Assembly (NCBI GenBank): GCA_947589675.1
Contig: CANQCI010000003.1
Coordinates: 1 to 59,834, forward strand
Source of the DNA: an uncultured Bacilli bacterium
GTDB lineage: Bacteria > Bacillota_I > Bacilli_A > RF39 > UBA660
Direction of reading: 5' to 3'
DNA length: 59,834 nucleotides
A program made the position numbers and the translations under genes. Under the pieces are notes generated by a model. The model was not told where the DNA came from. It worked only from the letters and a program-made list of their open reading frames with translations, and ran no database searches. The stretch's first letter is position 1, and each line of letters begins with the position of its first letter. This document shows positions 1,571 through 43,249 of this stretch, piece by piece.

Positions 1571-4069
1571 TCATTTTCCACAACAGTTTTTATATTTCTT
1601 ACCTGAGCCACATGGACATGGGTCATTACGACCAATTTTGTTTTTATTTACTTGCGGCTTAGCTTTAACTTTTTCTTTTCCATCATTAGCATTTAATTTT
1701 TGAGCTTTAGTTGGACGAGGTGGTTTAATTTCCTGTCTAACATCAATTTTCAAAAGGAAGGAAGCAATTTCGGCATCAATATCAGCCAAAAGTTTATCAA
1801 ACATTTCATAACCTTCCATTGTATAAGCTTGAATTGGATTAATTTGACTATAACCTCTTAACCCAATTCCTTCTTTTAAATGTTCCATCGCATTCATGTG
1901 GGCAATCCAATTACGGTCAATAATTACTAATGCTAATTTTTTTTCAACATCATGCATTAATGGCGAAATTATCATTTTCTTTTCATAATCCTTTAAAATC
2001 ATATCAAAAAGAAAATCAATAATTTCATCAGGACTTTTTCCATCAATATCTTCTATTTTTAAAACATGATTCTTTAAAAAGTTAGTATTTACATAGGAAA
2101 CAATATCTTCAATATCATTTTCTGTTAAATGATTTTCAGGTGGTATATGAGATTCTACTAAATTAGTTACAGTATTTTTAAATATCTCAACAACTTTATC
2201 ATGAATATTATCTTGATCCATTATTTCATTGCGTCGACTATAAATAATTTCTCTTTGTTCATTTAAAACGTTATCAAAATCTAAAAGATTTTTACGAATA
2301 TCAAAGTTATTACCTTCCACTTTCTTTTGAGCGGCTTCAATACTTTTGGTAAATGACTTTGAACGAATTGCTTGGTCTTCTGGGAAGCCCATGGTTTTTA
2401 ACACCTTTTTCATTTTTTCAGAGCCAAATTTCTTCATTAAGTCATCATCAAATGACACAAAAAATTGACTTGTACCTGGGTCACCTTGCCGACCTGAACG
2501 TCCTCTTAATTGGTTATCAATTCTTCGGGATTCGTGTCTTTCAGTACCAATAACATATAAACCACCTAGTTCTTTAACTTCATCTGTCAATTTAATGTCG
2601 GTTCCCCGACCAGCCATATTAGTTGCCAAAGTTATAGCTCCTTTTTCACCAGCTTTGGCTATAATTTCTGCTTCACGAGCATGGTTTTTCGCATTTAAAA
2701 CTTCATGTTTTAAACCAGCTTTAGTTAATAATTTACTAATTTTTTCATTCGATTCAACTGAGATAGTCCCAATCAAAATTGGTCTTCCCTCTTCATGAAT
2801 AAACTTAATAGTATCCACCAAAGCTTTTAATTTACCTTTTTCATTACAATAAACTAAATCTGGTAAATCATCACGAATAACTGGTTTATTCGTAGGGATT
2901 CGAATAACATACATATTATAAATATTTCGAAATTCTTCTTCTTCTGTTTTCGCTGTCCCAGTCATCCCTGATAATTTTTTATACATTCTAAATAAATTTT
3001 GGAAAGTTATAGATGCGGCTGTTTCCGCTTCAATATTAATAGGTACGCCTTCTTTAGCTTCAATAGCTTGATGTAGTCCATCTGTAAATTGTCTTCCTTC
3101 CATTAACCGTCCGGTGAAAGAATCAACAATAATAATTTCATTATTTTGCACTACATAATCAACATCTTTTTTAAAACCATAATTAGCCCGAATAGCTAAA
3201 TTAATGTGGTGAACTTGTTTTGCATTATTAACCGCATATAAATTATCGACACCTAAGAAAGCTTCAACTTTTTTACTTCCCGCCTCAGTTAACGAAACAT
3301 TCTTAGTTTTTAAATCAACGGTATAATCTTCTTCGTCTTTTAATTTTTTAGCAATTTTATCAGCTTTTGTGTATTCATCAACAGATGTTCTTCCACCCCC
3401 ACTGATAATTAACGGAGTCCTTGCTTCATCAATTAAAATAGAGTCTATTTCATCGATAATACAATAATTTAACCCACGTAAAACCTTATGTTCTTTTTTT
3501 AAAACCATATTATCACGTAGATAATCAAAACCAACTTCACTATTAGTTGAATAGGTAATATCACAAGCATAAGCTTTTTGCTTATCTGGTAAAGACATAT
3601 TATTTAAATTAACACCAACTGTTACACCTAGTGCTTCGTAAACAGGTCGCATCCATTCCGCATTACGGGTAGATAGGTATTCATTCGTCGTAACAACATG
3701 AACTCCTTTTCCCTCTAAAGCATTAAGATAAGCTGGTAAAACGGTTGTTAAAGTTTTTCCTTCCCCAGTTTTTAACTCGGCAATATTACCATAATGGGTT
3801 GCAAAGCCCCCTACAAGTTGCACATGAAATGGCTTTTCTCCTATTTTTCTCGCACAAGCTTCTCTTGCCACAGCAAAAGCGGGAACAGCGATATCATCAA
3901 TTGTTTTCCCTTCTTCTAACATTGCTTTAAATTCCGCCGTCTTATTCTTTAAGTCTTCATCACTTAAAGCTTGCATCTCTTCATCTAAAGCTTCAACTTC
4001 TTTTGCCATCTTTTCAAAACGACATAATTCTTTATATTCACTATCAATTAATTTTCTTAATATACCCAC
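1571..4069 (-). CDS. secA: Protein translocase ATPase SecA
   Basis: ELKTGEGKT, DEIDSILIDEARTPLIISG, NMAGRGTDI, C-terminal GRNDPCPCGSGKKYKNCC. GTG start at 4069 follows GAGGTGA. Confidence 0.98.
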   Translation of the reverse strand: MGILRKLIDSEYKELCRFEKMAKEVEALDEEMQALSDEDLKNKTAEFKAMLEEGKTIDDIAVPAFAVAREACARKIGEKPFHVQLVGGFATHYGNIAELKTGEGKTLTTVLPAYLNALEGKGVHVVTTNEYLSTRNAEWMRPVYEALGVTVGVNLNNMSLPDKQKAYACDITYSTNSEVGFDYLRDNMVLKKEHKVLRGLNYCIIDEIDSILIDEARTPLIISGGGRTSVDEYTKADKIAKKLKDEEDYTVDLKTKNVSLTEAGSKKVEAFLGVDNLYAVNNAKQVHHINLAIRANYGFKKDVDYVVQNNEIIIVDSFTGRLMEGRQFTDGLHQAIEAKEGVPINIEAETAASITFQNLFRMYKKLSGMTGTAKTEEEEFRNIYNMYVIRIPTNKPVIRDDLPDLVYCNEKGKLKALVDTIKFIHEEGRPILIGTISVESNEKISKLLTKAGLKHEVLNAKNHAREAEIIAKAGEKGAITLATNMAGRGTDIKLTDEVKELGGLYVIGTERHESRRIDNQLRGRSGRQGDPGTSQFFVSFDDDLMKKFGSEKMKKVLKTMGFPEDQAIRSKSFTKSIEAAQKKVEGNNFDIRKNLLDFDNVLNEQREIIYSRRNEIMDQDNIHDKVVEIFKNTVTNLVESHIPPENHLTENDIEDIVSYVNTNFLKNHVLKIEDIDGKSPDEIIDFLFDMILKDYEKKMIISPLMHDVEKKLALVIIDRNWIAHMNAMEHLKEGIGLRGYSQINPIQAYTMEGYEMFDKLLADIDAEIASFLLKIDVRQEIKPPRPTKAQKLNANDGKEKVKAKPQVNKNKIGRNDPCPCGSGKKYKNCCGK

Positions 4070-4148
4070 GTATATCACCTCACTATGTATTATAACATGA
4101 GAATTACTAAAAAACTAGGTGGATACACCAAGAAACATCAACCCATAT

Positions 4149-4172
4149 AAAAAAGATAACCTAAGTTATCTT
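4149..4172 (-). terminator. Intrinsic terminator after hpf
   Basis: AAGATAAC-ttag-GTTATCTT followed by Ts on the minus strand. Confidence 0.55.
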
Positions 4173-4179
4173 GAAAACA

Positions 4180-4713
4180 TCATTTTACGTTTATGATTCC
4201 AAAACTACCATCTTTACGACGATATAAGACGGAAACGCAATCTTCATCAATATTTTTAAAAACAAAGAAATCATGATTTAACATTTCAATTTGAATTAAG
4301 GCTTCTTCCTCATCCATCGGTTTCATATCAATATTCTTTCTTTTGACTATAATTTCTTTTTCTAATTCATCATCTGAAACATCAAATTCCATATTCATTT
4401 CAAATTTAGGGATATTTTTATATTTCTTTCCTAAACGGTCTTTGTTTTTGCGTATTTGTCTTTCCAATTTATCAATGACTAAATCAATTGCACTATATAA
4501 ATCTTCATTTCTTTCTTCCGCCCGCAACGTAAATTTGGATGTTGGTACGGTTATTTCAATAGATTGGTCTATATTCTTAACCTTTATTAATACCTTACAT
4601 TCAATATTTTTGGGATTTTCAAAATACTTATCTAATTTCCCTAGTTTTTCCGTGATGTAGTCTTTGATGGATTTAGTGACGGTTATTTTATCGCCACGAA
4701 TAACGATTTTCAA
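4180..4713 (-). CDS. hpf: Long ribosome hibernation promoting factor
   Basis: LRAEE..EDLYSAIDLVIDKLERQIRK and C-terminal KPMDEEEA..HDFFVF; upstream of secA. TTG start follows GAGGAGTGA. Confidence 0.95.
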   Translation of the reverse strand: MKIVIRGDKITVTKSIKDYITEKLGKLDKYFENPKNIECKVLIKVKNIDQSIEITVPTSKFTLRAEERNEDLYSAIDLVIDKLERQIRKNKDRLGKKYKNIPKFEMNMEFDVSDDELEKEIIVKRKNIDMKPMDEEEALIQIEMLNHDFFVFKNIDEDCVSVLYRRKDGSFGIINVK

Positions 4714-4758
4714 AAAATCACTCCTCTTTTTCATTATAACAAAAAAAAGGGAAAAAAA

Positions 4759-4974
4759 CTACTTAATTGTCGACATTTCTTCTTCAACAACATCAACAGC
4801 TTGCAAACCTTTAGAAGTTTCAATTAATTTAAAATTAACTATACTTCCTTCGTTTAAAGTTTTAAAACCATCTTTAACGATTGCTGAATAATGAACAAAT
4901 ATGTCAGAAAGTTGATCATATTGGATGAAGCCATAGCCTTTTTCGTTATTAAACCATTTGACTTTTCCTCTCAT
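4759..4974 (-). CDS. Cold-shock domain protein
   Basis: GKVKWFNNEKGYGFI, DIFVHYSAI, GFKTL.EG. Confidence 0.95.
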   Translation of the reverse strand: MRGKVKWFNNEKGYGFIQYDQLSDIFVHYSAIVKDGFKTLNEGSIVNFKLIETSKGLQAVDVVEEEMSTIK

Positions 4975-5120
4975 TATCTACCACCTACCCTTCTACTTAT
5001 AATTACATGACTAACATAATAACTAATCCATCAAACTTTATTATTTTTTAGCCACAACGAAAGTATAACATTATTGCTAACCAAAAATATTTTTAGTGTC
5101 TAAAACTTAATTTATTATGC

Positions 5121-5840
5121 TTAAAATACTTCTTTACTCTCAATGTTCTCTTTATAGTGCTTTGATAAGAGATTAATACTTATACCATTATCCAAAATAA
5201 AACTATTATGACTCCAATCAAATTTCTGAGTTCTTTGCGTATTCACTAAACAAGCTCGATGAACCTGCTTAAATCTTTCATCCAATAAATAAAAAACATC
5301 TTTTAAACCCATGTTTATTGAATATAAATTATTATCTGTTACAATGACAACCTTCCTTTCTTCGGTATCCCGATAAATATACAATATATTTTCTAAATAA
5401 ATACTTAGATTCATATCCCGATTTTGATAATTAAAACATTTTTGCTCACCCATATGCTTAAATATTAATTCTAAATCATTTTTTAATTTAATATGTTCTT
5501 TGGAACTTAAATTTAAAATATCAAATATGTTATGTAAATTATTCCAAGACGAATCCAAAATAGCTTCATTATCTTTAACTAAAATAATTTCATTATGATA
5601 ATCATTTTCCCGAATATACTTAATTAACTGATATTTGCGATTTAAATCTTTCTTGCCCAAATCTATTATATAAACTTTCTGATTTTCCTTATTTAAAATT
5701 TCTTCTTTTAATCCAGGACATATTTTTTGATACTGTTTCATCGTAATTGTATTTTCATATAAAAAATCTAATTCACTAATCACATTTCTTACTAATTTGT
5801 AACATTTCTCTTCACTACCTACCATGATAATTTTTATCAT
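5121..5840 (-). CDS. LytTR-domain regulator with degenerate receiver domain
   Basis: C-terminal F.QVHRACLVN LytTR motif. The N-terminal REC-like region lacks the acidic DD pocket. Confidence 0.75.
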   Translation of the reverse strand: MIKIIMVGSEEKCYKLVRNVISELDFLYENTITMKQYQKICPGLKEEILNKENQKVYIIDLGKKDLNRKYQLIKYIRENDYHNEIILVKDNEAILDSSWNNLHNIFDILNLSSKEHIKLKNDLELIFKHMGEQKCFNYQNRDMNLSIYLENILYIYRDTEERKVVIVTDNNLYSINMGLKDVFYLLDERFKQVHRACLVNTQRTQKFDWSHNSFILDNGISINLLSKHYKENIESKEVF

Positions 5841-21000: not shown

Positions 21001-21038
21001 AAAATGGTATCCACCAAAATGCGGGTACCATCTTTTTA
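21001..21038. terminator. Bidirectional terminator between PBP gene and noc
   Basis: ATGGTATCC...GGGTACCAT inverted repeat flanked by A- and T-runs. Confidence 0.6.
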
Positions 21039-22160
21039 TATTTTATCTTTCTTTATTTTAATATTTATTTGATATTCAGCCGGTAAATTGATTTCTTCCA
21101 CTTTTACTTTATCACTATCTAAATGTAAACCACGGATAGTATTAATAATATTATTCAAAAATTCATTTTCGGTAACTGATTTATCTTCTTTGACAGACGG
21201 AACAATAAAGTCATCAAGCATTTCAATCCCATCTGTATTATTTAAAATATCTTGAGGTGTTTTTTTCACATTAGTTTCTGGCACTTTATAAACAACTGGT
21301 TTTTCTTCCATATTCATATCGGCTGCTTCATCTTCCAAAAAGTTAAAGAATTTATTAGGCATTTTATCAGCACCATTATACATTAAATTAGGATTAATTA
21401 CTTGTGGTTCTTCTTTTGGCTTAACTTCCTCCTTAGCACCTAATACATCTTCTTTAATTGGTTGAGGAGAAACTATATCTTGAGCCATATTTACCATATT
21501 ATTAATATCAAAGTTTTGAATTATAGGGATATCACTATTATCATTATTTATATTCATTTTCTTAATTTCCTCTTCTAATTGACGAACAGTCAATCTTTCA
21601 TTTATTATTCTTTTTAATAATTCTTTTTGAACACTTAAATCCTTTACTTTTAATAAACTTCGAGCATGTCTTTCCGATATTTTTTCTTCTAATATTGCTT
21701 GTTGGACATCATCATCTAAAGATAATAATCTTAATTTATTAGAAATTGCTGATTGCGAAATCCCCATTCTTTTAGCTAGTTCTTCTTGGGTCATTCCATC
21801 TTTATCTAGTAAAGCTTTATAAGAACGAGCTTCTTCAATGGCAGTTAAATCTTTTCGTTGAATGTTTTCAACAATAGCTACTTCAGCACTTTTATTATCA
21901 TCCATATCAGATATAATTGCGGGAACGGAAGTAAGACCTGCCATCGTGGAAGCTTTATATCTTCGCTCACCTGCTATTATTTCATACTTATCGCCCACTT
22001 TTCGCAATACTAATGGTTGAATTATACCATGTTGTTTTATCGAATTAGATAATTCTTCTAAGGATTTATCATCAAAAGCCAATCGTGGCTGAAAACGATT
22101 AGGTATTATATCTTCAATGGGAATTTGTAAAACTTTATTTTCAATATTTGTTTCGTTCAC
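21036..22160 (-). CDS. noc: Nucleoid occlusion protein Noc (ParB family), atypical architecture
   Basis: PNRFQPR, GERR CTPase motif, HTH SQSAISNKLRLL, ISERHAR, Noc-like C-terminus INTIR...EYQINIKI; located after rsmG. Confidence 0.85.
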   Translation of the reverse strand: MNETNIENKVLQIPIEDIIPNRFQPRLAFDDKSLEELSNSIKQHGIIQPLVLRKVGDKYEIIAGERRYKASTMAGLTSVPAIISDMDDNKSAEVAIVENIQRKDLTAIEEARSYKALLDKDGMTQEELAKRMGISQSAISNKLRLLSLDDDVQQAILEEKISERHARSLLKVKDLSVQKELLKRIINERLTVRQLEEEIKKMNINNDNSDIPIIQNFDINNMVNMAQDIVSPQPIKEDVLGAKEEVKPKEEPQVINPNLMYNGADKMPNKFFNFLEDEAADMNMEEKPVVYKVPETNVKKTPQDILNNTDGIEMLDDFIVPSVKEDKSVTENEFLNNIINTIRGLHLDSDKVKVEEINLPAEYQINIKIKKDKI

Positions 22161-24775: not shown

Positions 24776-26131
24776 CTACTTTCCTAAACAAAAATTAGCA
24801 AAAATATTATCAACTAATTCTTCATTATATGCATCCCCAATAAGCTCACCCAAATACTCCCAAGCATCTCGCAAATCTATTTCTATAATATCAATAGGTA
24901 ATTTTTTTTCTTCAGCTAAAGAAGCATTTTCCAAACTTTTATAAGCTTTATTAACTAATTCTATTTGCCGTAAATTAGAGATATAACTCACATCTTTGGT
25001 TATAATTTTTCCTAAATTAAATTTGTTGATAATTGCTTCCTTTAATTTATCTAAACCATTCGTATCAAAAATATTTCCCGGGAAATATTCATACCCCTTT
25101 AATTTATCAACATCAATTTTGGTTTTTAAATCAGATTTGTTAATAAGTATAAGCAACTTTTCCCTAGGAAATTCCTTGAGTAATTCGAGTTCATCGTTAG
25201 AAATTTTTTCATTATTACTTACCACAAATAAAATTAAATCAGCTGTTGAAGCAATTTTTTTACTTTTTATTACTCCTATCTTTTCAACTTCATCATCAGT
25301 TTCCCTTATCCCAGCTGTATCAATAAAATTTAATAGAATACCATTTAAACTTATACTTCCTTCCACAATATCTCGAGTTGTTCCCGGAATATTCGTTACA
25401 ATTGCTTTTTCTTCATCTAATAAAGTATTAAGTATACTACTTTTGCCTACATTTGGTTTTCCAACAATTGCAACATTTATTCCCTCTTTTATAAGCCGAC
25501 CATTTTTACTATCGGCAATTAATTTTTGTAACTCAGTACTTATTTCGGCTAAATTTTTATTTAAGATATTATGAGTTACTTCCAATTCATCTTCATATTC
25601 AGGATAGTCAATATTAACCTCAATATTAGCTAAAACTTGCACCATTTTAGCTCGTAAATTTTTAATTTTACTACTCAACATGCCACCTACATTATTTAAA
25701 GCCATATTCCGAGCGGCATCAGTCTTAGCAGTAATTAAATCGTTTACCGATTCAGCTTCCACTAAATTTATTCGCCCATTTAAGAAAGCTCGCTTTGTAA
25801 ACTCGCCAGGTTCAGCTAAACGACAACCATTTTTTAATAATACTTCAACAATCTTATTAGTCGTATTTATTCCACCATGACAATTAATTTCCACCGTATC
25901 CTCAGTCGTATAAGTTTTCGGAGCCCGCATTAACATAACTAAAACTTCATCAATGTTTTCATTTTGATCCTTGATATAACCGTAATGAATAGTATGGCTA
26001 GGTGCCTCACCAAAATTGGCATTTGTAAAAACTTTTTTTACAACCGAGATAGCTTCTTTTCCAGAAACCCGAACAATTGAAATAGCCCCCACTCCTAAAG
26101 CTGTTGATATTGCCACAATAGTATCTTCCAT
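24776..26131 (-). CDS. mnmE: tRNA modification GTPase MnmE
   Basis: DTIVAIST, GKPNVGKSS, DTAGIR, C-terminal FCLGK. Confidence 0.98.
   Translation of the reverse strand: MEDTIVAISTALGVGAISIVRVSGKEAISVVKKVFTNANFGEAPSHTIHYGYIKDQNENIDEVLVMLMRAPKTYTTEDTVEINCHGGINTTNKIVEVLLKNGCRLAEPGEFTKRAFLNGRINLVEAESVNDLITAKTDAARNMALNNVGGMLSSKIKNLRAKMVQVLANIEVNIDYPEYEDELEVTHNILNKNLAEISTELQKLIADSKNGRLIKEGINVAIVGKPNVGKSSILNTLLDEEKAIVTNIPGTTRDIVEGSISLNGILLNFIDTAGIRETDDEVEKIGVIKSKKIASTADLILFVVSNNEKISNDELELLKEFPREKLLILINKSDLKTKIDVDKLKGYEYFPGNIFDTNGLDKLKEAIINKFNLGKIITKDVSYISNLRQIELVNKAYKSLENASLAEEKKLPIDIIEIDLRDAWEYLGELIGDAYNEELVDNIFANFCLGK
25072..25087. promoter_or_regulatory. Noc-binding site (NBS) within mnmE
   Basis: TATTTCCCGGGAAATA, a perfect match to the Bacillus NBS consensus, inside a 20-bp palindrome (25070-25089). 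Confidence 0.8.
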
Positions 26132-29278: not shown

Positions 29279-29467
29279 TTATCAACAAAAATGTGGATTG
29301 TTGATAACTTGTGGATAACTTTCCACATAATTAACAACATTATATCAACACGTTGTTGATAATTGTGTGGATATGTTGGTAGTGTTGCTTTAAGTTTTGT
29401 TGATAGTGTTGGTTTAGATATTTTTCCCGTAAATTGGGATTTTTTTTGTTAATAACTTTGGGGATAA
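29279..29467. promoter_or_regulatory. oriC upstream DnaA-box cluster
   Basis: Perfect TGTGGATAA at 29310-29318; TTATCAACA/TGTTGATAA at 29279, 29299, 29354; near-matches at 29292, 29319, 29331, 29342, 29366, 29398, 29447, 29459. Confidence 0.9.
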
Positions 29468-29545: not shown

Positions 29546-30907
29546 ATGAAAACTGACTATACAAATTTATTGACTAATTTTTTAAACGAAATTGCTAACA
29601 AAGTATCCCAAAATGCGTATACTATTTGGTTTTCACAACTTGAGATAGTTGCCATTAAAGAACAAGAAATGACTATCAAAGTCCCGATGGAAATTCACAA
29701 GCAAATGCTTAGTGAAACTTATCAAGAAACAATCGATACAATTTTTAATTCTTTAACCGGAATTAATTATACTTTTAAATACTTAACAGAGGAAGAATTA
29801 GAAACTTTTACGCCTCCCAAAATCATCAAAAATAAACAGGAAGTTGTCAAAAAGGAGTGGGAAACAAACTTAGATCCCAAATATACTTTTGATAACTATG
29901 TAGTTGGTAACAGTAATCGCTTAGCTTTTGTCGCCGCTAAGTCAGTTGCCGAAGCCCCAGGTACAATCCATAATCCTCTTTTTATTTACGGACGAAGTGG
30001 ACTTGGGAAAACGCATTTAATGCAAGCAATAGGTAATTATATAAAAGAACATAGTAACTTAAAAGTTTTATATACAACAAGTAAAGCATACATGACCGAT
30101 TTTACTGGAATGGCTACTATGGATAATGGAAGTAATAAAATAAATTCCGCAAATGAGTTTAATAATAAATATCAAAATGTTGATGTACTAATAATTGATG
30201 ACATTCAGTTCTTAACATCCGCAGAACGAACGCAGCAAGAATTTTTTCATACATTTAATACTCTACATCAGGCTAACAAACAAATAATTATAAGTAGTGA
30301 TAAGAGTCCCGATGATTTAAAGAAAATCGAGGAACGTTTGCGAAGTAGATTTAGTTGGGGATTACCTGTTGATATTTATCCACCAGATTATAATCTTCGT
30401 TGTGATATTATCAACGCCAAAATAAAAAATACTAGTATTGAAAACAAATTAACGGAAGATGTGATAGAATATATAGCAAATTCTTGTGTTAATGACGTCA
30501 GGCATATCGAGGGAACCATTAATCGGTTAATGGTTTATACCGCTATAATGGTTCCTGAAAAAATAACACTAGATTTTGCCATTGAAGCTTTAAAGGATTA
30601 TGTTAATACCAACATATTTATCAACAATTCAATAGCTTCGATCCAAAATGCGGTCGCTGAATACTTTAAAATTTCTGTTGAAGATTTAAAAGGGAAAAGG
30701 CGAACCAGTAATGTTGTACGACCTAGACACATTGCTATGTACCTGTGCCGAGCCGAAACAGATGAAAACCTTGCCAAAATAGGGCTGGAATTTGGCGGGC
30801 GCGATCATTCCACAGTTTCTACCGCAATTGATAAAATAAAAGAAGAAATTGAAACAGATGATAACTTGAATAAAATGTTGAAAGAAATTAAAACTAAGTT
30901 ACAATAA
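29546..30907 (+). CDS. dnaA: Chromosomal replication initiator DnaA
   Basis: YTFDNYVVG, NPLFIYGRSGLGKTHL, DDIQF, RLRSRF, FGGRDHSTV. Confidence 0.98.
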   Translation: MKTDYTNLLTNFLNEIANKVSQNAYTIWFSQLEIVAIKEQEMTIKVPMEIHKQMLSETYQETIDTIFNSLTGINYTFKYLTEEELETFTPPKIIKNKQEVVKKEWETNLDPKYTFDNYVVGNSNRLAFVAAKSVAEAPGTIHNPLFIYGRSGLGKTHLMQAIGNYIKEHSNLKVLYTTSKAYMTDFTGMATMDNGSNKINSANEFNNKYQNVDVLIIDDIQFLTSAERTQQEFFHTFNTLHQANKQIIISSDKSPDDLKKIEERLRSRFSWGLPVDIYPPDYNLRCDIINAKIKNTSIENKLTEDVIEYIANSCVNDVRHIEGTINRLMVYTAIMVPEKITLDFAIEALKDYVNTNIFINNSIASIQNAVAEYFKISVEDLKGKRRTSNVVRPRHIAMYLCRAETDENLAKIGLEFGGRDHSTVSTAIDKIKEEIETDDNLNKMLKEIKTKLQ

Positions 30908-31015
30908 TGTTGATAACTTTTGAGTTATAAACACCGATTTTATCTAAAAAATATGTTGGTAACTATATACTTATCAACATATCAACACTATAATAATTAT
31001 AATAATATATATAAG
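30908..31015 (+). promoter_or_regulatory. oriC unwinding region (DnaA boxes, trio-like repeats, AT-rich stretch)
   Basis: TGTTGATAA at 30908, overlapping boxes TTATCAACATATCAACA at 30971-30987, then CTA-TAA-TAA-TTA-TAA-TAA-TATATA. Same layout as the B. subtilis dnaA-dnaN origin. Confidence 0.85.
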
Positions 31016-35839: not shown

Positions 35840-38293
35840 ATGGATCATAGTAGAGATAGATTAGAGGAAAATAATATTGTTGATGAAATTGAAAGCTCCT
35901 TTATAGAATATTCAATGAGCGTTATTGTTTCGAGGGCTTTACCTGATTTACGAGATGGTTTAAAACCAGTTCATCGGCGGATTTTATATTCGATGTATGA
36001 ATCTGGTTATACTCCAGATAAGCCTCATAAGAAGAGTGCCCGTATTGTTGGGGATGTCATGGGGAAATATCATCCTCATGGGGACTCAAGTATTTATGAA
36101 GCCATGGTTAGAATGGCTCAAGATTTTAGTTATCGCTATATGCTTGTTGATGGACATGGAAATTTTGGGAATATCGAAGGTTATGGTGCCGCCGCAATGC
36201 GTTATACAGAATCTCGATTATCAAAAATATCTTTAGAATTACTTAGAGATATCAACAAAAATACAGTTGATTTTGGACCTAACTTTGATGAATCAGAAAA
36301 GGAACCATTAATATTACCAAGTAGATTTCCCAACGTTTTAGTTAATGGAACAATGGGAATTGCTGTGGGGATGGCTACTAATATTCCTCCCCATAATTTA
36401 GGCGAAGTTATCGATGGTTGTATTGCTTATATAGATAATCCTGAGATAACCACAACAGAATTAATGCAATATATTAAAGGTCCAGATTTTCCAACAGGTG
36501 GTATTATTTTAGGTAATAGTGGGATAAAACAAGCTTATGAAACCGGAAGAGGTACAGTTACTGTTCGAAGTAAGGCTACAATTGAAGAAAAAAATGGTCG
36601 GCATTATATTATTGTCGATGAAGTTCCATATGGCGTAAATACCTTAGAATTAAAAAATAAGGTAGCAGATTTAGTTCATAATAAAGTACTTGATGGAATA
36701 GCCGATTATCATACTGATTTAAAAAATGGGGTAAAAATTACAATAACTTTAAAAAAGGATGCTAATCCGCAAGTAGTGTTAAATAATTTATATAAACATA
36801 CAGCTTTTCAATCAAATTTTGGGATAATCTTTTTAATGCTTGATAAAGGAGTTCCAAAAACTCTAGGATTAAAAGATATTGTTTCTAAGTATATAGATTA
36901 TCAACGGGAAGTAATTGTTCGCCGTACACAATTTGATTTAGATAAAAATGAAAAAAGAGTTCATATTTTAGAAGGTTTAAAAATTGCTTTAGATAATATC
37001 GATGAAGTAATTAAAATCATTCGTGGGGCGGAAAATGATGAAGAAGCCAAAGCTAAATTGACAAGCCGATTTGGCTTAAGTGATGCCCAAACAACAGCTA
37101 TTTTGGAAATGCGGTTACGTCGTTTAACTGGTTTAGAACGAGATAAAATTGAATCCGAATTAAATGATTTATTAGCAGAAATTCAAAGATTAAGAGAAAT
37201 TTTAGCTGACCCTAAGAAAGTTGATGAAGTTATCAAAAAGGAAATGCTTGAAATTAAAAATAAATTTGGCGATGAAAGAAAAACGCAAATTGATATGACC
37301 GCAGTGGATTATATTGAAGATGAATCTTTAATTCCAAATGAAAATATTTTAGTAGTCCTAACCAACAGTGGTTATATTAAACGAACTACTTCTGACACAT
37401 TTAAGGCTCAAAAACGTGGTGGAGTTGGCGTAAAAGGGATATCTACTCATGATGAAGATTTTGTTACCCATGTGTTAAATTTAAATTCTCATGATTATGT
37501 TCTATTCTTCACTAACAAAGGAAGAGTATATCGATTAAAGGGTTATGAAATACCTGAATTTAGTCGTCAATCTAAAGGCTTACCAATAATTAATTTATTA
37601 TCCTTAGATAAAGACGAGAAAATTAATAATATTTTACCAGTGGAAAAGAATGATGATAGCAAACATTTGTTATTTGCCACTCGTATGGGAATTGTAAAGA
37701 AAACATTATTGTCAGAGTTCGAAAATATTCGAAATAATGGGAAAATATGTATTACATTAAAGCCAGATGACGAACTAATTGATGTTAAAAAAACGACTGG
37801 TTCAAATTTAATTTTACTTGGGTCTTCATCTGGAAGAATGGTAAAATTTAATGAAAATGAAATCCGTAATATGGGAAGAACCGCATCAGGTGTTCGAGGT
37901 ATTAATTTAGGTGAGTCGACTTGTATTTGCTGTGAAGTAGTACATGAAGATGATACCATACTTTTGGTTACGGAAAAGGGTTATGGTAAGCGAACAAATG
38001 TTCGAGATTTTAGACAAACAAAGCGTGGAAGCAAAGGGGTAAAAGCCCTTAATATTACTGAGAAAAATGGTAATTTAGTTGCGACCAAATTGATTTCAGT
38101 AGATAATGACGTAATAATAATGACAGATTCTGGCATGACTGTAAGAATTGCTGTTGACCAAATTTCATTACTTGGAAGAGTAACCCAAGGCTTAAGATTA
38201 ATTAACTTAAAAGATAATCAAAAAGTTGCTACTATAAGTATAGTAAGTAAGGAAGAAATTGATAATACGTCTAGTGATGACACTCAAAATTAG
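35840..38293 (+). CDS. gyrA: DNA gyrase subunit A
   Basis: [17 protein letters not shown], GyrA-box QKRGGVG. Confidence 0.98.
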
Positions 38294-38323: not shown

Positions 38324-40706
38324 AAACAAAAATAGCAATGTTCCACGTGTAACATTGAATTTTTTGGCGTACTTCCGGGAAATTGGTATACAAATTTCAG
38401 TGAGATGATGGATATGATAATTTTGTATAATATCTAAATTAGGATATATATAATAAGATAAAAAATAATCAAAATAACGATGTTCCACGTGTAACATTGG
38501 ATTTTTTGGCATACTTCTGGGAAGTGAGTATTCAAATTTCAGTGAGATGATATACGATAGTTTTATATAATATCTTTAAGTTATATATAATAAGGATAAA
38601 AAATAATCAAAATAACAATGTTCCACGTGTAACATTTGAATTTTTGGCGTACTTTTGGGAAGTGAGTATTTAAATTTCAGTAAAGATGAGTGAAATAAAA
38701 GAAGAACAGTTTTGTATAACAATTCAAGTTATATATAATAAAGGTAGAAATATATAAAATAACGATGTTCCACGTGTAACATTCGAATTTTTGGCGTACT
38801 TCTGGGAAGTGAGTATACAAATTTCAGTGAGATGATGGATATGATAATTTTGTATAATATCAATATATATAATAAGGATAAAAAATAATCAAAATAACGA
38901 TGTTCCACGTGTAACATTGGATTTTTTGGCGTACTTCTGGGAAATGGGTATTCAGATTTTAGTGAGATAGCGGATAAGAGAAGATTAACTTAAAGGTAAT
39001 AATTAAAACCATAATGATATTTATAATAAGGATAAAAAATAAATAAAATAACGATGTTCCACATGTAACATTCGAATTTTTGGCGTACTTCTGGGAAGTG
39101 GGTATTCAAATTTTAGTGAGATGATGGATACGATAGTTTATATAATATCTAAATTAAGTTATATATAATAAAGATAGAAATATATAAAATAACGATGTTC
39201 CACGTGTAACATTCGAATTTTTGGCGTACTTCTGGGAAGTGGGTATACAAATTTCAGTGAGATGATGGATACGATAGTTTATATAATATCTAAATTAGGA
39301 TATATATAATAAGGATAAAAAATAATAAAATAGCAATGTTCCACGTGTAACATTGGATTTTTTGGCGTACTTATGGGAAATGGGTATTCAGATTTTAGTG
39401 AGATAACGGATAAGAGAAGATTAACTTAAAGGTAATAATTAAAACCATAATGATATATATAATAAGGATAAAAAATAATCAAAATAACGATGTTCCACGT
39501 GTAACATTCGAATTTTTGGCGTACTTTTGGGAAGTGAGTATTTAAATTTCAGTAAAGATGAGTGAAATAAAAGAAGAATAGTTTTGTATAACAATTCAAG
39601 TTATATATAATAAAGATAGAAATATATAAAATAACAATGTTCCACGTGTAACATTCGAATTTTTGGCGTACTTCTGGGAAGTGGGTATACAAATTTCAGT
39701 GAGATGATGGATACGATAGTTTATATAATATCTAAATTAGGATATATATAATAAGGATAAAAAATAATAAAATAGCAATGTTCCACGTGTAACATTGGAT
39801 TTTTTGGCGTACTTCTGGGAAATGGGTATTCAGATTTTAGTGAGATAGCGGATAAGAGAAGATTAACTTAAAGGTAATAATTAAAACCATAATGATATTT
39901 ATAATAAGGATAAAAAATAAATAAAATAACGATGTTCCACGTGTAACATTCGAATTTTTGGCGTACTTCTGGGAAGTGGTTATTCAGATTTCAGTCGACA
40001 TGATGGATAAGAGAAGATTAACTTTAAGTAATAATTTAAACCTTAATGATATATATAATAAGGATAAAAAATAATCAAAATAACGATGTTCCACGTGTAA
40101 CATTGGATTTTTTGGCGTACTTCTGGGAAGTGGGTATTCAAATTTTAGTGAGATGATGGATACGATAGTTTATATAATATCTAAATTAAGTTATATATAA
40201 TAAGGATAGAAATATATAAAATAACGATGTTCCACGTGTAACATTGGATTTTTTGGCGTACTTCTGGGAAATGGGTATTCAGATTTTAGTGAGATAGCGG
40301 ATAAGAGAAGATTAACTTAAAGGTAATAATTAAAACCATAATGATATTTATAATAAGGATAAAAAATAAATAAAATAACGATGTTCCACGTGTAACATTG
40401 GATTTTTTGGCGTACTTCTGGGAAATGGGTATTCAGATTTTAGTGAGATAGCGGATAAGAGAAGATTAACTTAAAGGTAATAATTAAAACCATAATGATA
40501 TTTATAATAAGGATAAAAAATAAATAAAATAACAATGTTCCACGTGTAACATTGGATTTTTTGGCGTACTTCTGGGAAGTGGGTATTCAGATTTCAGTCG
40601 ACATGATGGATAAGAGAAGATTAACTTTAAGTATTAATTTAAACCTTAATTATAATAAGGATAAAAAATAATCAAAATAACGATGTTCCACGTGGAACAT
40701 CGTTAT
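38324..40706. repeat. Tandem array of 16 units (135-154 bp) bounded by 17 parS-type palindromes
   Basis: 16-mers start at 38339, 38481, 38619, 38766, 38901, 39055, 39196, 39337, 39491, 39638, 39779, 39933, 40087, 40228, 40382, 40536, 40684. Fifteen are TGTTCCACGTGTAACA, one is TGTTCCACATGTAACA (39055) and one is TGTTCCACGTGGAACA (40684); compare parS TGTTNCACGTGAAACA. Confidence 0.95.
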
Positions 40707-40707
40707 A

Positions 40708-40736
40708 TTGACAAAAAATATTTTTATTGATAATAT
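40708..40736 (+). promoter_or_regulatory. Sigma-A promoter of SRP RNA
   Basis: TTGACA (40708-40713), 17-bp spacer ending in TGA, then TAATAT (40731-40736). Confidence 0.75.
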
Positions 40737-40742
40737 AAGTAT

Positions 40743-40813
40743 GTGCAACAAGGATGCTGTAACTTGGTCAGAATTGGAAAATAGCAGCCATATCAGCCTC
40801 TACTTGTGTGCAC
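40743..40813 (+). ncRNA. ffs: Small signal recognition particle RNA (4.5S-type)
   Basis: Helix-8 motif GGTCAGAATT-GGAA-AATAGCAGCC, terminal pairing GTGCA.ACAAG / CTTGT.TGCAC, then T7; adjacent to tadA-dnaX. Confidence 0.88.
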
Positions 40814-40838
40814 TTTTTTTATGCAAGGAAGTGAGTAA

Positions 40839-41280: not shown

Positions 41281-42933
41281 ATGAATTATAAGGTTTTGTA
41301 TCGTAAATATCGCCCAACTGGTTTTGACAGTTTAATTGGGCAAAATGCGGTTGTCCAAATATTAAAAAATTCTATACGAGAAAATAAAATAGCCCATGCT
41401 TATATTTTTTCGGGACCTCGGGGAACCGGAAAGACCAGCACCGCTCGAATTTTAGCAAAATCAATAAACTGTTTGCATAATCAGGATGGCGTTGCTTGTG
41501 GAGAATGTGAGAATTGTCAACATTTTAGTACGAGTCCAGATATTATTGAAATAGATGCCGCATCTAATAATGGTGTTGATGAAATAAGAGAATTAATAAA
41601 TAATGTTAAAATAATGCCAACATCATTAAAATACAAAATATATATTATAGATGAAGTTCATATGTTAAGTACAAGTGCTTTTAATGCTTTGCTTTTAACC
41701 TTAGAAGAACCACCAGAACATGTTATATTTATATTAGCAACAACCAACTTAGAAAGCGTACCGATTACGATTTTATCTAGGTGTCAAAAATTTGATTTTA
41801 AAAGGATTAATCAAAAAGACATAATTGCAAGATTACGATATGTATGTGAAGAAGAAAAAATCTCAATCGAAGACGATGCTTTAACAGAAATAGCTTTATT
41901 AGCTGATGGAGGTATGCGGGATGCATTAAGTATTCTCGACCAGCTTTCCAAAAATGAAGAAAAGATAACTTTAAATTTAGTAGTTAATGAAGTTGGTACA
42001 ATTTCAAATAAAAAAATAAGTGATCTTGTGGATTATTTAGATAAAAATGAGATTGATAACGTAGAAACTACGATAAAAGAAGTTCGTAATGCCAATTTAA
42101 ACTACAAAGTGGTTATAAAAAAATTAATTGATATTTTAGCTAGTAGAGCAGTTGATAATATAAAGTATGGGGTAGTTAATCATCTCACATATGATGATTA
42201 TAAAAATTTGATATTTGAATTAAATGAATTACTTAATAAAATAAATATTAGTATTGATCCATATGTCTTAATAGAAATCTTATTACTAAAATATATAGAT
42301 AAAAAGGAAATAAAAAATAGTAGTCCTGTTGATGTGAAAGTGAATAATGAGGTTAAAGAAGAACCTAAGGTTGATTTGGTAAGGGAGGTTCCTCCCCAAC
42401 AAATTAGCGAGGATGTTAAGCCTAAAGAAATACCTCGAACACCGATACAAAACGATAGTTTGTCTAATTATAATGTTGATATTAGAATTAATAATTGTTT
42501 TGTAGATGCATCTAAGGATATGTTGAATAAAGTTAAAAATGCTTGGAATGACTTGATTGAAAATGCTGATAAGGCTCAGCTTAAAGGCTTAATTAGTGAT
42601 ACTCAACCTGTGGCGTCTTCCGCAGGGTATACTATTATAGCTACCTCAATTAATCATAAAGACCAAGAACTTAATGATAATCTTGCAATGTTGGAAAAAG
42701 AATTTAATCAAAGATATAGTTTTAATTTAAAATTAGTATTTATTGAAGAAAAAAGATGGCAAGAGGAAAGGAATAAATATATTGAAAATATAAAACAAAA
42801 TAAAAAGTATACTCTGAAAGAAGAAAAACAAGAGGAAGAAAAAAAAGAAAAAGCAGAAGAAAAAAAGTTGGGAAATAACATTGAAGATGTTGTAAAAGAT
42901 ATTTTTAATGTTAATAAAATAGAAATAATTTAG
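41281..42933 (+). CDS. dnaX: DNA polymerase III gamma/tau subunit
   Basis: LYRKYRP, GPRGTGKT, EIDAASN, IIDEVHML, SRCQ. Confidence 0.97.
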   Translation: MNYKVLYRKYRPTGFDSLIGQNAVVQILKNSIRENKIAHAYIFSGPRGTGKTSTARILAKSINCLHNQDGVACGECENCQHFSTSPDIIEIDAASNNGVDEIRELINNVKIMPTSLKYKIYIIDEVHMLSTSAFNALLLTLEEPPEHVIFILATTNLESVPITILSRCQKFDFKRINQKDIIARLRYVCEEEKISIEDDALTEIALLADGGMRDALSILDQLSKNEEKITLNLVVNEVGTISNKKISDLVDYLDKNEIDNVETTIKEVRNANLNYKVVIKKLIDILASRAVDNIKYGVVNHLTYDDYKNLIFELNELLNKINISIDPYVLIEILLLKYIDKKEIKNSSPVDVKVNNEVKEEPKVDLVREVPPQQISEDVKPKEIPRTPIQNDSLSNYNVDIRINNCFVDASKDMLNKVKNAWNDLIENADKAQLKGLISDTQPVASSAGYTIIATSINHKDQELNDNLAMLEKEFNQRYSFNLKLVFIEEKRWQEERNKYIENIKQNKKYTLKEEKQEEEKKEKAEEKKLGNNIEDVVKDIFNVNKIEII

Positions 42934-42952: not shown

Positions 42953-43249
42953 ATGAATATGCAAGCAATGATGCAACAAGCACAAAGATTACAAAAAGAA
43001 ATTTTAAAAAAGAAAGAAAATGTGGAAAAGAAAATATTTCCCGGGAAATATGAATGGGTTGAAGTAAGTTTTAATGGTAAAAAAGAAATCCAATCAATAA
43101 AAATAAATAAAGAAGGGGATATTGCCCAAGATGATAAGGACATGTTAGAGGATATGATTATGTTAGCTATTAAGGATGCAATGCAAAAAATTGATGAAGA
43201 ATTTGATAAAGAAATGGGACAATATGGTTCCTTAAGTGGATTAATGTAA
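42953..43249 (+). CDS. ybaB: YbaB/EbfC nucleoid-associated protein
   Basis: MMQQAQRLQ, DKDMLEDMI; lies between dnaX and recR. Confidence 0.92.
   Translation: MNMQAMMQQAQRLQKEILKKKENVEKKIFPGKYEWVEVSFNGKKEIQSIKINKEGDIAQDDKDMLEDMIMLAIKDAMQKIDEEFDKEMGQYGSLSGLM
43035..43050. promoter_or_regulatory. Noc-binding site (NBS) within ybaB
   Basis: TATTTCCCGGGAAATA, perfect consensus, inside an 18-bp palindrome (43034-43051). Confidence 0.8.

What the first reader, a model, noticed from the sequence alone, without database searches (positions are those of the whole stretch)
38324..40706. Satellite-like centromere: 17 parS sites in a regular ~147-bp tandem array near oriC
Seen: a 2.4-kb non-coding array after the gyrA terminator, with 17 near-identical 16-bp palindromes (15 are TGTTCCACGTGTAACA) at 135-154 bp spacing, all in the same orientation, about 7-10 kb from oriC. 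Established: this matches the chromosomal parS consensus bound by the CTP-dependent ParB clamp, which recruits SMC. B. subtilis has its parS sites dispersed around the origin and has an rRNA operon at this position. Inference: the lineage concentrated its centromere into one locus by tandem amplification, giving a dense ParB/SMC loading platform whose strength could vary with copy number. I do not know of a described equivalent but cannot exclude one.
Basis: partly seen in the sequence, partly recalled or inferred. Interest (0 to 1): 0.92.

Follow-up and report, generated by a model that had tools for sequence, protein, structure and literature searches.

The report
Tandem 17-site parS centromere array
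This small gut bacterium carries all of its chromosome-partition (parS) sites as 17 tandem copies between gyrA and the SRP RNA gene, an extreme case of a clustered centromere that is common in its family and has a described counterpart in Myxococcus.

Summary
Seventeen parS 16-mers, 135-154 bp apart and all in one orientation, fill the gyrA-ffs spacer 7-11 kb from dnaA/oriC. They are the only parS sites in the 1.46-Mb draft genome.

The genome encodes Soj, a Spo0J-type ParB with parS-type specificity residues, SMC and ScpA. A cluster of 2-10 parS sites lies in the same spacer in 26 of 28 genus relatives and in other genera of the family. Copy number, period (64-172 bp) and spacer sequence differ, but the palindrome is kept.

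The best reading is a real chromosomal centromere and ParB loading locus enlarged by recent tandem duplication. It is not unique:
- M. xanthus has a published 3-kb cluster of 22 parS repeats.
- One scan found parS arrays of up to 25 sites in many phyla.

Copy number rests on a short-read assembly and is only roughly supported by unitig depth.

The fresher observation is at family level. Canonical Noc-binding sites sit in the same spacer, in some genera alternating with parS. This genome's units carry a different conserved motif instead.

Verdict: new member of a known kind, moderate interest.

The parts
35840..38293 (+). gyrA, the upstream flank
   Evidence: NCBIfam TIGR01063 gyrA, 1126 bits
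38293..38323 (+). AT-rich hairpin plus T8 after gyrA, terminator-like
   Evidence: Read by eye. The terminator scan did not list it because it has too few G-C pairs.
38324..40706 (+). Tandem array of 16 full units of 135-154 bp plus a terminal site. Three unit subtypes (141, 147 and 154 bp) give a higher-order period of about 449 bp.
38339..38354 (+). parS 1, TGTTCCACGTGTAACA
38481..38496 (+). parS 2
38619..38634 (+). parS 3
38766..38781 (+). parS 4
38901..38916 (+). parS 5
39055..39070 (+). parS 6, a variant with CACATG at the core (1 mismatch)
39196..39211 (+). parS 7
39337..39352 (+). parS 8
39491..39506 (+). parS 9
39638..39653 (+). parS 10
39779..39794 (+). parS 11
39933..39948 (+). parS 12
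40087..40102 (+). parS 13
40228..40243 (+). parS 14
40382..40397 (+). parS 15
40536..40551 (+). parS 16
40684..40699 (.). parS 17, the perfect palindrome TGTTCCACGTGGAACA. It is the core of a 30-bp perfect palindrome (40677-40706) that ends 1 bp before the ffs -35 box.
38366..40577 (+). Second conserved motif, GGCNNACTTCTGGGA (at most 1 mismatch). One copy per full unit (16 copies) starts 27 nt after each parS start: 38366, 38508, 38646, 38793, 38928, 39082, 39223, 39364, 39518, 39665, 39806, 39960, 40114, 40255, 40409, 40563. It contains the 13-bp palindrome ACTTC[CT]GGGAA[AG]T. Function unknown.
   Evidence: It occurs nowhere else in the genome.
40708..40736 (+). ffs promoter-like site, TTGACA-17-TAATAT with a TG extension
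40734..40824 (+). ffs (small SRP RNA), the downstream flank
   Evidence: Rfam RF00169, 53.3 bits
40839..41249 (+). tadA-like deaminase
   Evidence: NCBIfam NF008113, E 5e-22, below the curated cut-off
41281..42933 (+). dnaX
   Evidence: NCBIfam NF004046, 465 bits
29546..30907 (+). dnaA. DnaA-box clusters lie upstream (29279-29459) and downstream (30908-30971), marking the origin region.
21036..22160 (-). Noc-like ParB paralogue next to rsmG. Its specificity residues are Q-K-S-R (NBS type). It has no long N-terminal extension.

Best explanation
The array is the chromosome's only centromere (parS) locus, enlarged by recent tandem duplication of a unit of about 147 bp.

Proposed mechanism; each step is inferred from established ParABS biology, and none was assayed here:
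1. Dimers of the Spo0J-type ParB, encoded with Soj on another contig, nucleate at each of the 17 palindromes.
2. They bind CTP, close into clamps and slide onto flanking DNA.
3. This builds one partition complex 7-11 kb from oriC, which Soj/ParA moves and which loads SMC-ScpAB at a single entry point.

The address (gyrA-[parS]n-ffs-tadA) is ancestral to the family. The number of sites is set by gain and loss of units through slippage or unequal recombination. This genome is the largest case seen in its family. Nothing here shows that 17 copies, rather than a few, are needed or selected.
For: Shown by sequence:
- 17 consensus sites against 0 in shuffles. All parS within 1 mismatch of TGTTNCACGTGNAACA in the 1.46-Mb genome lie here.
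- A soj-spo0J operon is on contig C16. The Spo0J-like protein has the GERR motif and residues R-I-K-S at the four ParB/Noc specificity positions. The paper's passages require R at 173 and allow S at 201 (PMC7383237). I mapped the positions by eye on the alignments.
- SMC is present (923 bits summed), as is ScpA.
- The origin is close by.

Conservation:
- 26 of 28 genus relatives whose ffs was found carry 2-10 parS (at most 1 mismatch) in the same spacer. Both flanks lie on one contig in 22 of them.
- Four of the five other genera checked in detail show the same gyrA-parS-tadA order; the fifth (G133) was tied to ffs only.
- Exact-site counts for whole genomes equal the counts in this locus in nearly all genus members.
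- Periods differ even among the closest relatives: 64 bp in G014, non-repetitive spacers in G017 and G023.
- G000 spacers find only a 22-37-nt motif in the relatives.
- Three near-identical species differ by whole units.

Recent duplication: some units are identical, and there are three subtypes in a higher-order repeat.

Precedent:
- M. xanthus has 22 parS repeats in 3 kb, and ParB shifted a 3.12-kb probe holding them (PMC3899335, passages).
- Clustering of strong parS sites is proposed to avoid SMC collisions in B. subtilis (PMC8357415, passages).
Against: - No binding, ChIP, Hi-C or expression data exist for this uncultured organism.
- Fifteen of the 17 sites carry the same uncommon half-site (GTGTAACA). 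Their identity therefore reflects recent duplication, not 17 independent tests of selection.
- The review passages say one parS is often sufficient (PMC7333895), so most copies may be redundant.
- Copy number and unit order rest on one short-read assembly. Unitigs of four runs of one sample, probably the source, break at 38434 and 40665, and none spans the array.
- About 45 bp beside each parS are as conserved as parS itself. The unit may therefore hold a second function that this explanation ignores.
- The parAB operon is not beside the array. In relatives with long contigs it lies 19-110 kb away.
Confidence: 0.78

Rival explanations
1. Dosage-selected 'super-centromere'. The high copy number is itself adaptive: it raises the ParB nucleation and SMC loading rate, and strength is tuned by copy number.
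For: This genome has the most sites in its class sample: 16 exact against at most 9 in 49 family genomes and at most 4 in 351 genomes of other families. Large arrays recur in unrelated phyla: 25 of the 80 loci examined hold 10 or more sites, which hints at a recurrent advantage.
Against: Sister species manage with 2-10 sites at the same place. Close species gain and lose units freely. The review passages state that a single parS is often sufficient. A high SMC flux is reported to be harmful in B. subtilis. No phenotype data exist.
Confidence: 0.25
2. Two-factor module. Each unit is selected as a pair: parS plus the conserved motif TTTTTGGCGTACTTCTGGGAAG. The motif would be bound by a second protein, either the Noc-like paralogue or an unknown factor, so the array is a composite platform.
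For: - The motif is present in 16 of 16 full units and nowhere else in the genome.
- A single copy lies in the same spacer in 6 of 55 genus relatives: G013, G020, G022, G024, G046 and G538.
- It occupies the position that canonical Noc-binding sites hold next to parS in other genera. In G345, 11 of 11 parS have one 26-27 bp downstream. In the family sample, 28 of 120 genera have one within 4-34 bp of a parS.
- Its 13-bp palindrome resembles the Noc-binding site with one central base pair missing.
Against: - Conservation among the units can be explained by recent duplication alone.
- The motif is absent from 49 of 55 genus relatives and from all 80 loci of the wider scan.
- In relatives it sits on the opposite strand and is not paired with parS.
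- The Noc-like recognition residues are unchanged (Q-K-x-R) in genomes with and without canonical sites. A site with altered half-site spacing is therefore not expected to fit it.
- No such module was found in metagenome contigs.
Confidence: 0.2
3. Assembly artefact. The true locus has far fewer units, or a different number, and the 17 copies come from mis-assembly of a repeat in a metagenome bin.
For: No unitig spans the array. The pieces are 66-169 bp long, and all four runs come from one sample. In relatives, contigs break at this locus in G005, G007, G010, G020, G041 and G043.
Against: The assembled contig has unique flanks on both sides. All unit variants are present in the unitigs with few differences. 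For 23 pieces, the ratio of depth to flank depth tracks their multiplicity in the assembly. One example gives 4.0 for 4 copies; the 159-bp piece gives 3.1-3.5 for 2 copies, so if anything the count is slightly low. Relatives with multi-site arrays on long contigs show that such arrays are real.
Confidence: 0.08
4. Operator array. ParB bound and spread at the sites mainly represses or insulates the adjacent ffs-tadA-dnaX promoter; segregation is secondary.
For: The last parS ends 8 bp before the ffs -35 box. The parS cluster lies directly upstream of ffs throughout the family. ParB repression of promoters next to parS is reported in P. aeruginosa (PMC5521831, abstract in the search listing only).
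Against: One site would be enough for an operator. These are the only parS sites in the genome, so they must also serve segregation if the encoded ParABS system is used. Promoter-like sites inside the array are below chance, 12 against 21 expected.
Confidence: 0.05
5. Remnant of a plasmid or phage partition site, integrated and amplified.
For: Iterated centromeres are typical of plasmids, for example F sopC (recalled, not checked here).
Against: The locus is syntenic between core genes in the genus and in four other genera of the family. Three units have no BLAST match in 72,556 plasmid or 50,697 phage records. No mobile-element genes flank it.
Confidence: 0.02

Closest known systems
Myxococcus xanthus chromosomal parS cluster (Iniesta 2014, PMC3899335; passages read)
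   Same: It has many consensus parS repeats packed into one short origin-proximal stretch: 22 sites in about 3.05 kb, which by my arithmetic is a mean spacing of about 145 bp. Here there are 17 sites in 2.36 kb, about 147 bp apart. M. xanthus ParB shifted a 3.12-kb probe containing the cluster.
   Different: The Myxococcus cluster lies about 4 kb upstream of parA. Here the array is between gyrA and ffs, and parAB is on another contig (19-110 kb away in relatives). This array is a clear tandem repeat with a higher-order period and a conserved extra motif. I did not see whether the Myxococcus sites form a tandem repeat. The genome here is 1.46 Mb against 9.1 Mb.
Dispersed multi-site chromosomal centromeres (B. 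subtilis strong sites spread over about 60 kb; S. coelicolor and L. innocua with 20-23 sites, from PMC8357415 and PMC7333895 passages)
   Same: The same 16-bp consensus, the same ParB/Soj/SMC machinery, origin proximity, and a variable number of sites.
   Different: Those sites are spread over tens to hundreds of kb among genes. Here all sites are in one 2.4-kb non-coding spacer, so there is effectively one loading point.
Plasmid iterated centromeres such as F sopC (12 tandem 43-bp repeats; recalled, not checked here)
   Same: They work in a similar way: direct tandem repeats, each carrying one inverted repeat for a ParB-type protein.
   Different: Here the locus is chromosomal and syntenic in the genus and in other genera of the family, carries the chromosomal parS consensus, has much longer units, and has no plasmid or phage match.
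Noc/NBS nucleoid-occlusion system of Bacillus (PMC8429893 and PMC7383237, passages)
   Same: A ParB paralogue next to rsmG has the NBS-type specificity residues. Perfect NBS 14-mers are present in the family.
   Different: In B. subtilis the sites are scattered around the chromosome. In this family there are mostly 1-5 exact sites per genome. In the five relatives checked genome-wide, 19 of 22 exact sites sit in the parS spacer. The paralogue lacks the roughly 26-residue N-terminal segment that carries Noc's membrane helix. This genome's array has no canonical NBS.

Membership tests
Chromosomal ParABS centromere (parS) | 16-bp palindrome matching TGTTNCACGTGNAACA | tested here: met
   16 of 17 sites match exactly and 1 has one mismatch.
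Chromosomal ParABS centromere (parS) | Cognate ParB with a ParB_N domain (GERR CTP motif) and parS-type specificity residues (R173; small residue at 201) | tested here: met
   PF02195 scores 128.7 bits on C16. GERR and R-I-K-S were read from the alignments. The rule comes from PMC7383237. This is sequence inference only.
Chromosomal ParABS centromere (parS) | ParA/Soj partner encoded with ParB | tested here: met
   A 264-aa ParA-family ORF overlaps the start of spo0J on L001.
Chromosomal ParABS centromere (parS) | Origin-proximal position | tested here: met
   The array is 7.4-11.4 kb from the DnaA-box clusters and the GC-skew switch.
Chromosomal ParABS centromere (parS) | SMC-ScpAB present for ParB-dependent loading | tested here: met
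   SMC scores 923 bits summed and ScpA 121.8 bits. ScpB was not searched.
Chromosomal ParABS centromere (parS) | Specific ParB binding, site-stimulated CTPase and spreading | not testable with these tools
   This needs purified protein or ChIP.
Chromosomal ParABS centromere (parS) | Site conserved in relatives while flanks diverge | tested here: met
   The three-species substitution test was only weakly informative: 97.7-98.6% identity in parS columns against 94.4-96.3% elsewhere.
Noc/NBS system | Canonical NBS (ATTTCCCGGGAAAT) in the array | tested here: not met
   There are 0 in the array at up to 1 mismatch. The genome has 3 exact sites: window 25073, window 43036 and C1:21552.
Noc/NBS system | Paralogue with Q173/K179/K184/R201 | tested here: met
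   Q-K-S-R in this genome and Q-K-(S/T/N)-R in 5 orthologues. Three of the four positions match, and position 184 is not K.
Noc/NBS system | N-terminal amphipathic membrane helix plus helix 2 (about 26 residues before the ParB N domain) | tested here: not met
   Only about 10-15 residues precede the conserved IPIEDIIPNRFQPR block, even when the frame is read back to the upstream stop. This was judged by inspection; no helix prediction was run.
Plasmid/phage partition site | Similarity to, or linkage with, a mobile replicon | tested here: not met
   No match in the plasmid or phage collections. The flanks are core genes.
CRISPR array | Identical short repeats separated by unrelated spacers | tested here: not met
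   The 'spacers' are 82-100% alike and belong to the repeat unit.

The most novel reading that the evidence does not exclude
In this family of small-genome gut Bacilli, the gyrA-ffs spacer is a composite centromere where two paralogous CTP clamps load side by side: Spo0J on parS and the helix-less Noc-like protein on NBS. The Noc-like protein would then be a centromere-associated factor and not a genome-wide nucleoid-occlusion protein. In this genome the NBS partner has been replaced in every unit by a different conserved 20-nt motif, which would mark a second, still unknown, bound factor. What is observed is where the sites lie and how many there are; the binding and the role are inferred.
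Probability: 0.3. Interest if true: 0.7.

Novelty: new member of a known kind. Interest (0 to 1): 0.45.

Why it matters
The 2020 review names two open questions: why parS number varies from 1 to more than 20, and why the sites cluster (PMC7333895). This family offers a natural series at one fixed address. Copy number runs from 0-1 to 17, the period from 64 to 172 bp, and partner Noc sites are present or absent, across at least 55 species of one genus and more than 100 genera. That makes the questions approachable by comparative genomics, metagenomic Hi-C and in-vitro work with two small proteins.

The single scan also shows that long tandem parS arrays are common in public genomes of many phyla. 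My literature searches found only the Myxococcus cluster as a dense natural chromosomal array; other hits for the same phrases were not read.

For this one window the practical message is modest: it is an ordinary centromere function in an unusually repetitive form.

Tried and rejected
RNA gene or small RNA in the units: Rfam gave nothing in the array at gathering threshold. At E up to 1 the only extra hit was a 21-bit match at 40656-40728 (gathering score 65), which I take as chance. No tRNA was found.

Promoters in each unit: 12 promoter-like sites against 21 expected from shuffles, so no enrichment.

CRISPR reading: rejected, because the spacers are part of the repeat.

Mobile-element origin: no plasmid or phage match.

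Other samples: two metagenome-contig scans found nothing. One looked for a pair of the asymmetric sites 131-156 bp apart, the other for parS followed by the second motif. No closer relative of this array type was therefore available.

Second motif in the genus: of the two relatives carrying the exact G000 version, G538 has it as a single copy in the spacer, and G539 has it at a place with no parS nearby.

Substitution test on three close species: right direction, but too little divergence to be decisive.

Reads: only unitigs of four runs of one sample (X1-X4, recorded as rabbit gut metagenome) were available. No piece spans the array, and a few bins had almost no cover in some runs. That shows neither presence nor absence of those parts. 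No RNA run was listed, so transcription was not examined.

Literature:
- Livny et al. 2007 (PMC2168934) is not held. Its tables may list other dense clusters.
- The claim that tandem parS arrays are little described rests on searches only. The claim that parS-NBS juxtaposition is not described rests on search 27 (listing) and the passages only.

Not run: structure prediction, complex prediction, protein atlas and the large protein searches. Family membership of the proteins was clear without them.
Full report
OBSERVATION. The feature is exactly as described. A search for TGTTCCACGTGTAACA with up to 2 mismatches gave 17 sites on the + strand between 38339 and 40699. Fifteen are exact, one has CACATG at the core (39055), and the last (40684) is the perfect palindrome TGTTCCACGTGGAACA. 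None of 100 shuffles gave any match. Spacings run from 135 to 154 bp. Tandem Repeats Finder reports a 154-bp period and a 449-bp higher-order period. An alignment of the units shows three subtypes (141, 147 and 154 bp), several identical copies, and a strongly conserved block of about 45 bp just downstream of each palindrome. No ORF longer than 62 aa lies wholly inside the array. There is no Rfam or tRNA hit in it, and promoter-like sites are fewer than chance, 12 against 21.

CONTEXT. The order is dnaA (29546-30907), dnaN, gyrB, gyrA (35840-38293), the array, ffs (40734-40824), a tadA-like gene, then dnaX. DnaA-box clusters lie on both sides of dnaA, and the GC skew changes sign near 29-30 kb. 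The array is therefore 7.4-11.4 kb from the origin region. The last site is the centre of a 30-bp perfect palindrome that ends 1 bp before the -35 box of a good ffs promoter.

MACHINERY. The window belongs to a 1.46-Mb draft genome of 60 contigs, 95% complete. Every match to TGTTNCACGTGNAACA (up to 1 mismatch) in that genome is in this array. Two ParB_N proteins are encoded.
- The first is a 296-aa Spo0J type, directly behind a 264-aa Soj/ParA on contig C16.
- The second is a 374-aa Noc-like protein next to rsmG in the window.

At the four positions that decide parS versus NBS specificity (ParB R/T/A/G against Noc Q/K/K/R; PMC7383237, passages), the first protein reads R-I-K-S. That is the parS type: R173 is required and S is tolerated at 201. 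The second reads Q-K-S-R, the NBS type. I mapped these positions by eye on alignments to solved Spo0J and Noc chains, and they are the same in five orthologue pairs. Both proteins carry GERR. SMC and ScpA are present.

RELATIVES. Same-genus genomes were examined by fetching the region upstream of ffs.
- 26 of 28 relatives whose ffs was found carry 2-10 parS (up to 1 mismatch) there. In the other two, the contig begins at ffs.
- In 22 of them, gyrA and tadA flank the cluster on one contig.
- Spacings range from 51 to 293 bp. True tandem arrays occur with other periods: 64 bp in G014, 84 bp in G004 and G005, 86-98 bp in G015.
- The three closest relatives by GyrA identity (83-86%) have a 64-bp array or non-repetitive spacers.
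- Whole-genome counts of exact sites equal the counts in this locus in nearly all of them.
- G000 spacers with parS removed find nothing in the relatives except one 22-37-nt motif.
- Three very close species differ by whole units.

In five other genera of the family the clusters again lie next to ffs, and in the four checked for flanks (G345, G408, G317, G178) they lie between gyrA and tadA. G345 has 11 sites over 2.5 kb with a 172-bp period. In a class-wide sample, genomes outside the family have 0-4 exact sites (351 genomes). The family has up to 9 (49 genomes, 45 of them with sites). This genome has 16 exact sites. The spo0J gene is 19-110 kb from the cluster in three relatives with long contigs.

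So a single multi-site parS locus at gyrA-ffs is a family trait with rapid unit turnover, and this genome is its extreme.

BEYOND THE FAMILY. One scan of 185,579 species genomes looked for three consensus sites 131-161 bp apart. In the 80 loci returned:
- 25 hold 10 or more sites and 4 hold 17 or more: 25 in a Bdellovibrionota MAG, 19 in an uncultured Bacilli MAG, and 17 in two others. Many have strict periods of 36-85 bp.
- 21 loci are of the gyrA/tadA type with GyrA 56-76% identical to this genome. Most of these are titled 'uncultured Bacilli bacterium'; one is 'Firmicutes bacterium CAG:460'.
- By my count from the output, about 32 of the 80 arrays lie beside parA-parB.

[quoted passage not shown] A review notes 1 to 20-23 sites per genome and asks why number and clustering vary (PMC7333895, passages).

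THE REST OF THE UNIT. The G345 unit contains, 26-27 bp after each parS start, a perfect Noc-binding site (11 of 11). Following this lead:
- 22 of 29 genus loci have 1-3 NBS (up to 1 mismatch); in 21 of them the NBS lie between the parS cluster and ffs. G000 and its closest relatives have none there.
- In five relatives, 19 of 22 exact NBS in the whole genome lie in this spacer.
- In a sample of one genome per genus, 105 of 120 have exact NBS, mostly 1-5 per genome. One has 20, most of them in a tandem array of about 79 bp.
- 28 of 120 have an NBS 4-34 bp from a parS.
- Two loci of the wide scan hold matching numbers of the two site types at a 75-76-bp parS period: 9 parS with 9 NBS, and 6 parS with 7 NBS. 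I did not inspect their order.

The Noc-like protein lacks the roughly 26-residue N-terminal segment that carries Noc's membrane helix (PMC8429893, passages).

G000 has only 3 exact NBS, none in the array. Instead, each full unit carries GGCNNACTTCTGGGA: 16 of 16 units, and nowhere else in the genome. The same motif occurs once, on the other strand, in the spacer of 6 of 55 genus relatives. Its inner 13-bp palindrome looks like an NBS lacking one central pair. I cannot say what it does.

ASSEMBLY. Four runs of one sample, recorded as rabbit gut metagenome and probably the source, hold the stretch only as short unitigs. The flanking unitigs stop at 38434 and 40665, and none spans the array. For 23 pieces, depth relative to the flanks roughly follows their multiplicity in the assembly. 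The copy number is thus about right and perhaps slightly low, but unit order is unverified.

MECHANISM AND RIVALS.
- Most likely (0.78): this is the working centromere. Spo0J dimers nucleate at each site, become CTP clamps and spread. Soj moves the complex, and SMC-ScpAB loads from one point, an arrangement that avoids the SMC collisions reported for distant sites (PMC8357415, passages). The size of the array is the outcome of duplication and loss of units. All these steps are inferred from family knowledge.
- Adaptive dosage: possible but unsupported (0.25).
- A two-factor module: open (0.2).
- Assembly inflation: unlikely to remove the array (0.08).
- Operator-only (0.05) and mobile-element (0.02) readings fit poorly.

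VERDICT. The feature is real and correctly identified as a parS array. It is a new member of a known kind, not a new kind. It is of moderate interest in itself. The family-wide co-location of ParB and Noc-type sites is of greater interest and was only partly followed up here.

Noticed in passing
L060 (G345:C1:201500-209200) 2640-5211; L061 (G408); genus loci L036-L058: Canonical Noc-binding sites (ATTTCCCGGGAAAT) share the gyrA-ffs spacer with parS across the family. In G345, 11 of 11 parS have an NBS 26-27 bp downstream. In the genus, 1-3 NBS lie between the parS cluster and ffs in most loci that have one. In five relatives, 19 of 22 exact NBS in the whole genome lie in this spacer.
   Followed up: partly
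G456:C1:89140-90102 (not fetched): A family member has 20 exact NBS. At least 12 of them form a tandem array with a period of about 79 bp, so it is a Noc-site array and not a parS array.
   Followed up: no
window 21036-22160 (-): The Noc-like ParB paralogue next to rsmG has NBS-type residues Q-K-S-R and GERR. It has no room for Noc's N-terminal membrane helix, and it has a tail of about 165 residues rich in acidic residues and lysine with no family match.
   Followed up: partly
window 25073-25086 and 43036-43049; G000:C1:21552: These are the only three exact NBS in this genome. Two of them lie within 5-13 kb of oriC, inside the mnmE-like ORF and a 98-aa ORF after dnaX.
   Followed up: no
window 38366-40577 (16 copies); single copies in L044 (G046), L045 (G022), L040 (G024), L059 (G020), L055 (G013), L192 (G538): A conserved motif of about 20 nt, TTTTTNGGCNNACTTCTGGGA, is specific to this spacer. 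It is amplified with parS in this genome. In six relatives it is single-copy and on the opposite strand.
   Followed up: partly
L103, L093, L109, L073, L080, L141, L127 and others (loci): Long, regular tandem parS arrays (13-25 sites, periods of 36-85 bp) occur in many phyla. They usually lie beside parA-parB or mnmG/rsmG.
   Followed up: partly
L101; L114; L132: Contigs titled as a Methanobacteriaceae archaeon MAG or Muribaculaceae MAGs have 26-28% GC and a GyrA 57-76% identical to this genome's (GyrB 75-77% in L101 and L114). They look like contigs of this Bacilli lineage binned into the wrong genome.
   Followed up: no
L046 (G017) and L050 (G023), spacer between gyrA and ffs: DnaA-box-like 9-mers (TTATCAACA or its complement) sit directly against several parS sites and elsewhere in the spacer of the closest relatives. 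This was seen by eye. This genome's array has none within 1 mismatch.
   Followed up: no
G005, G007, G010, G020, G041, G043: In six of 28 genus relatives the contig ends at or inside the parS locus. Arrays in this group are therefore probably under-counted in short-read MAGs.
   Followed up: no
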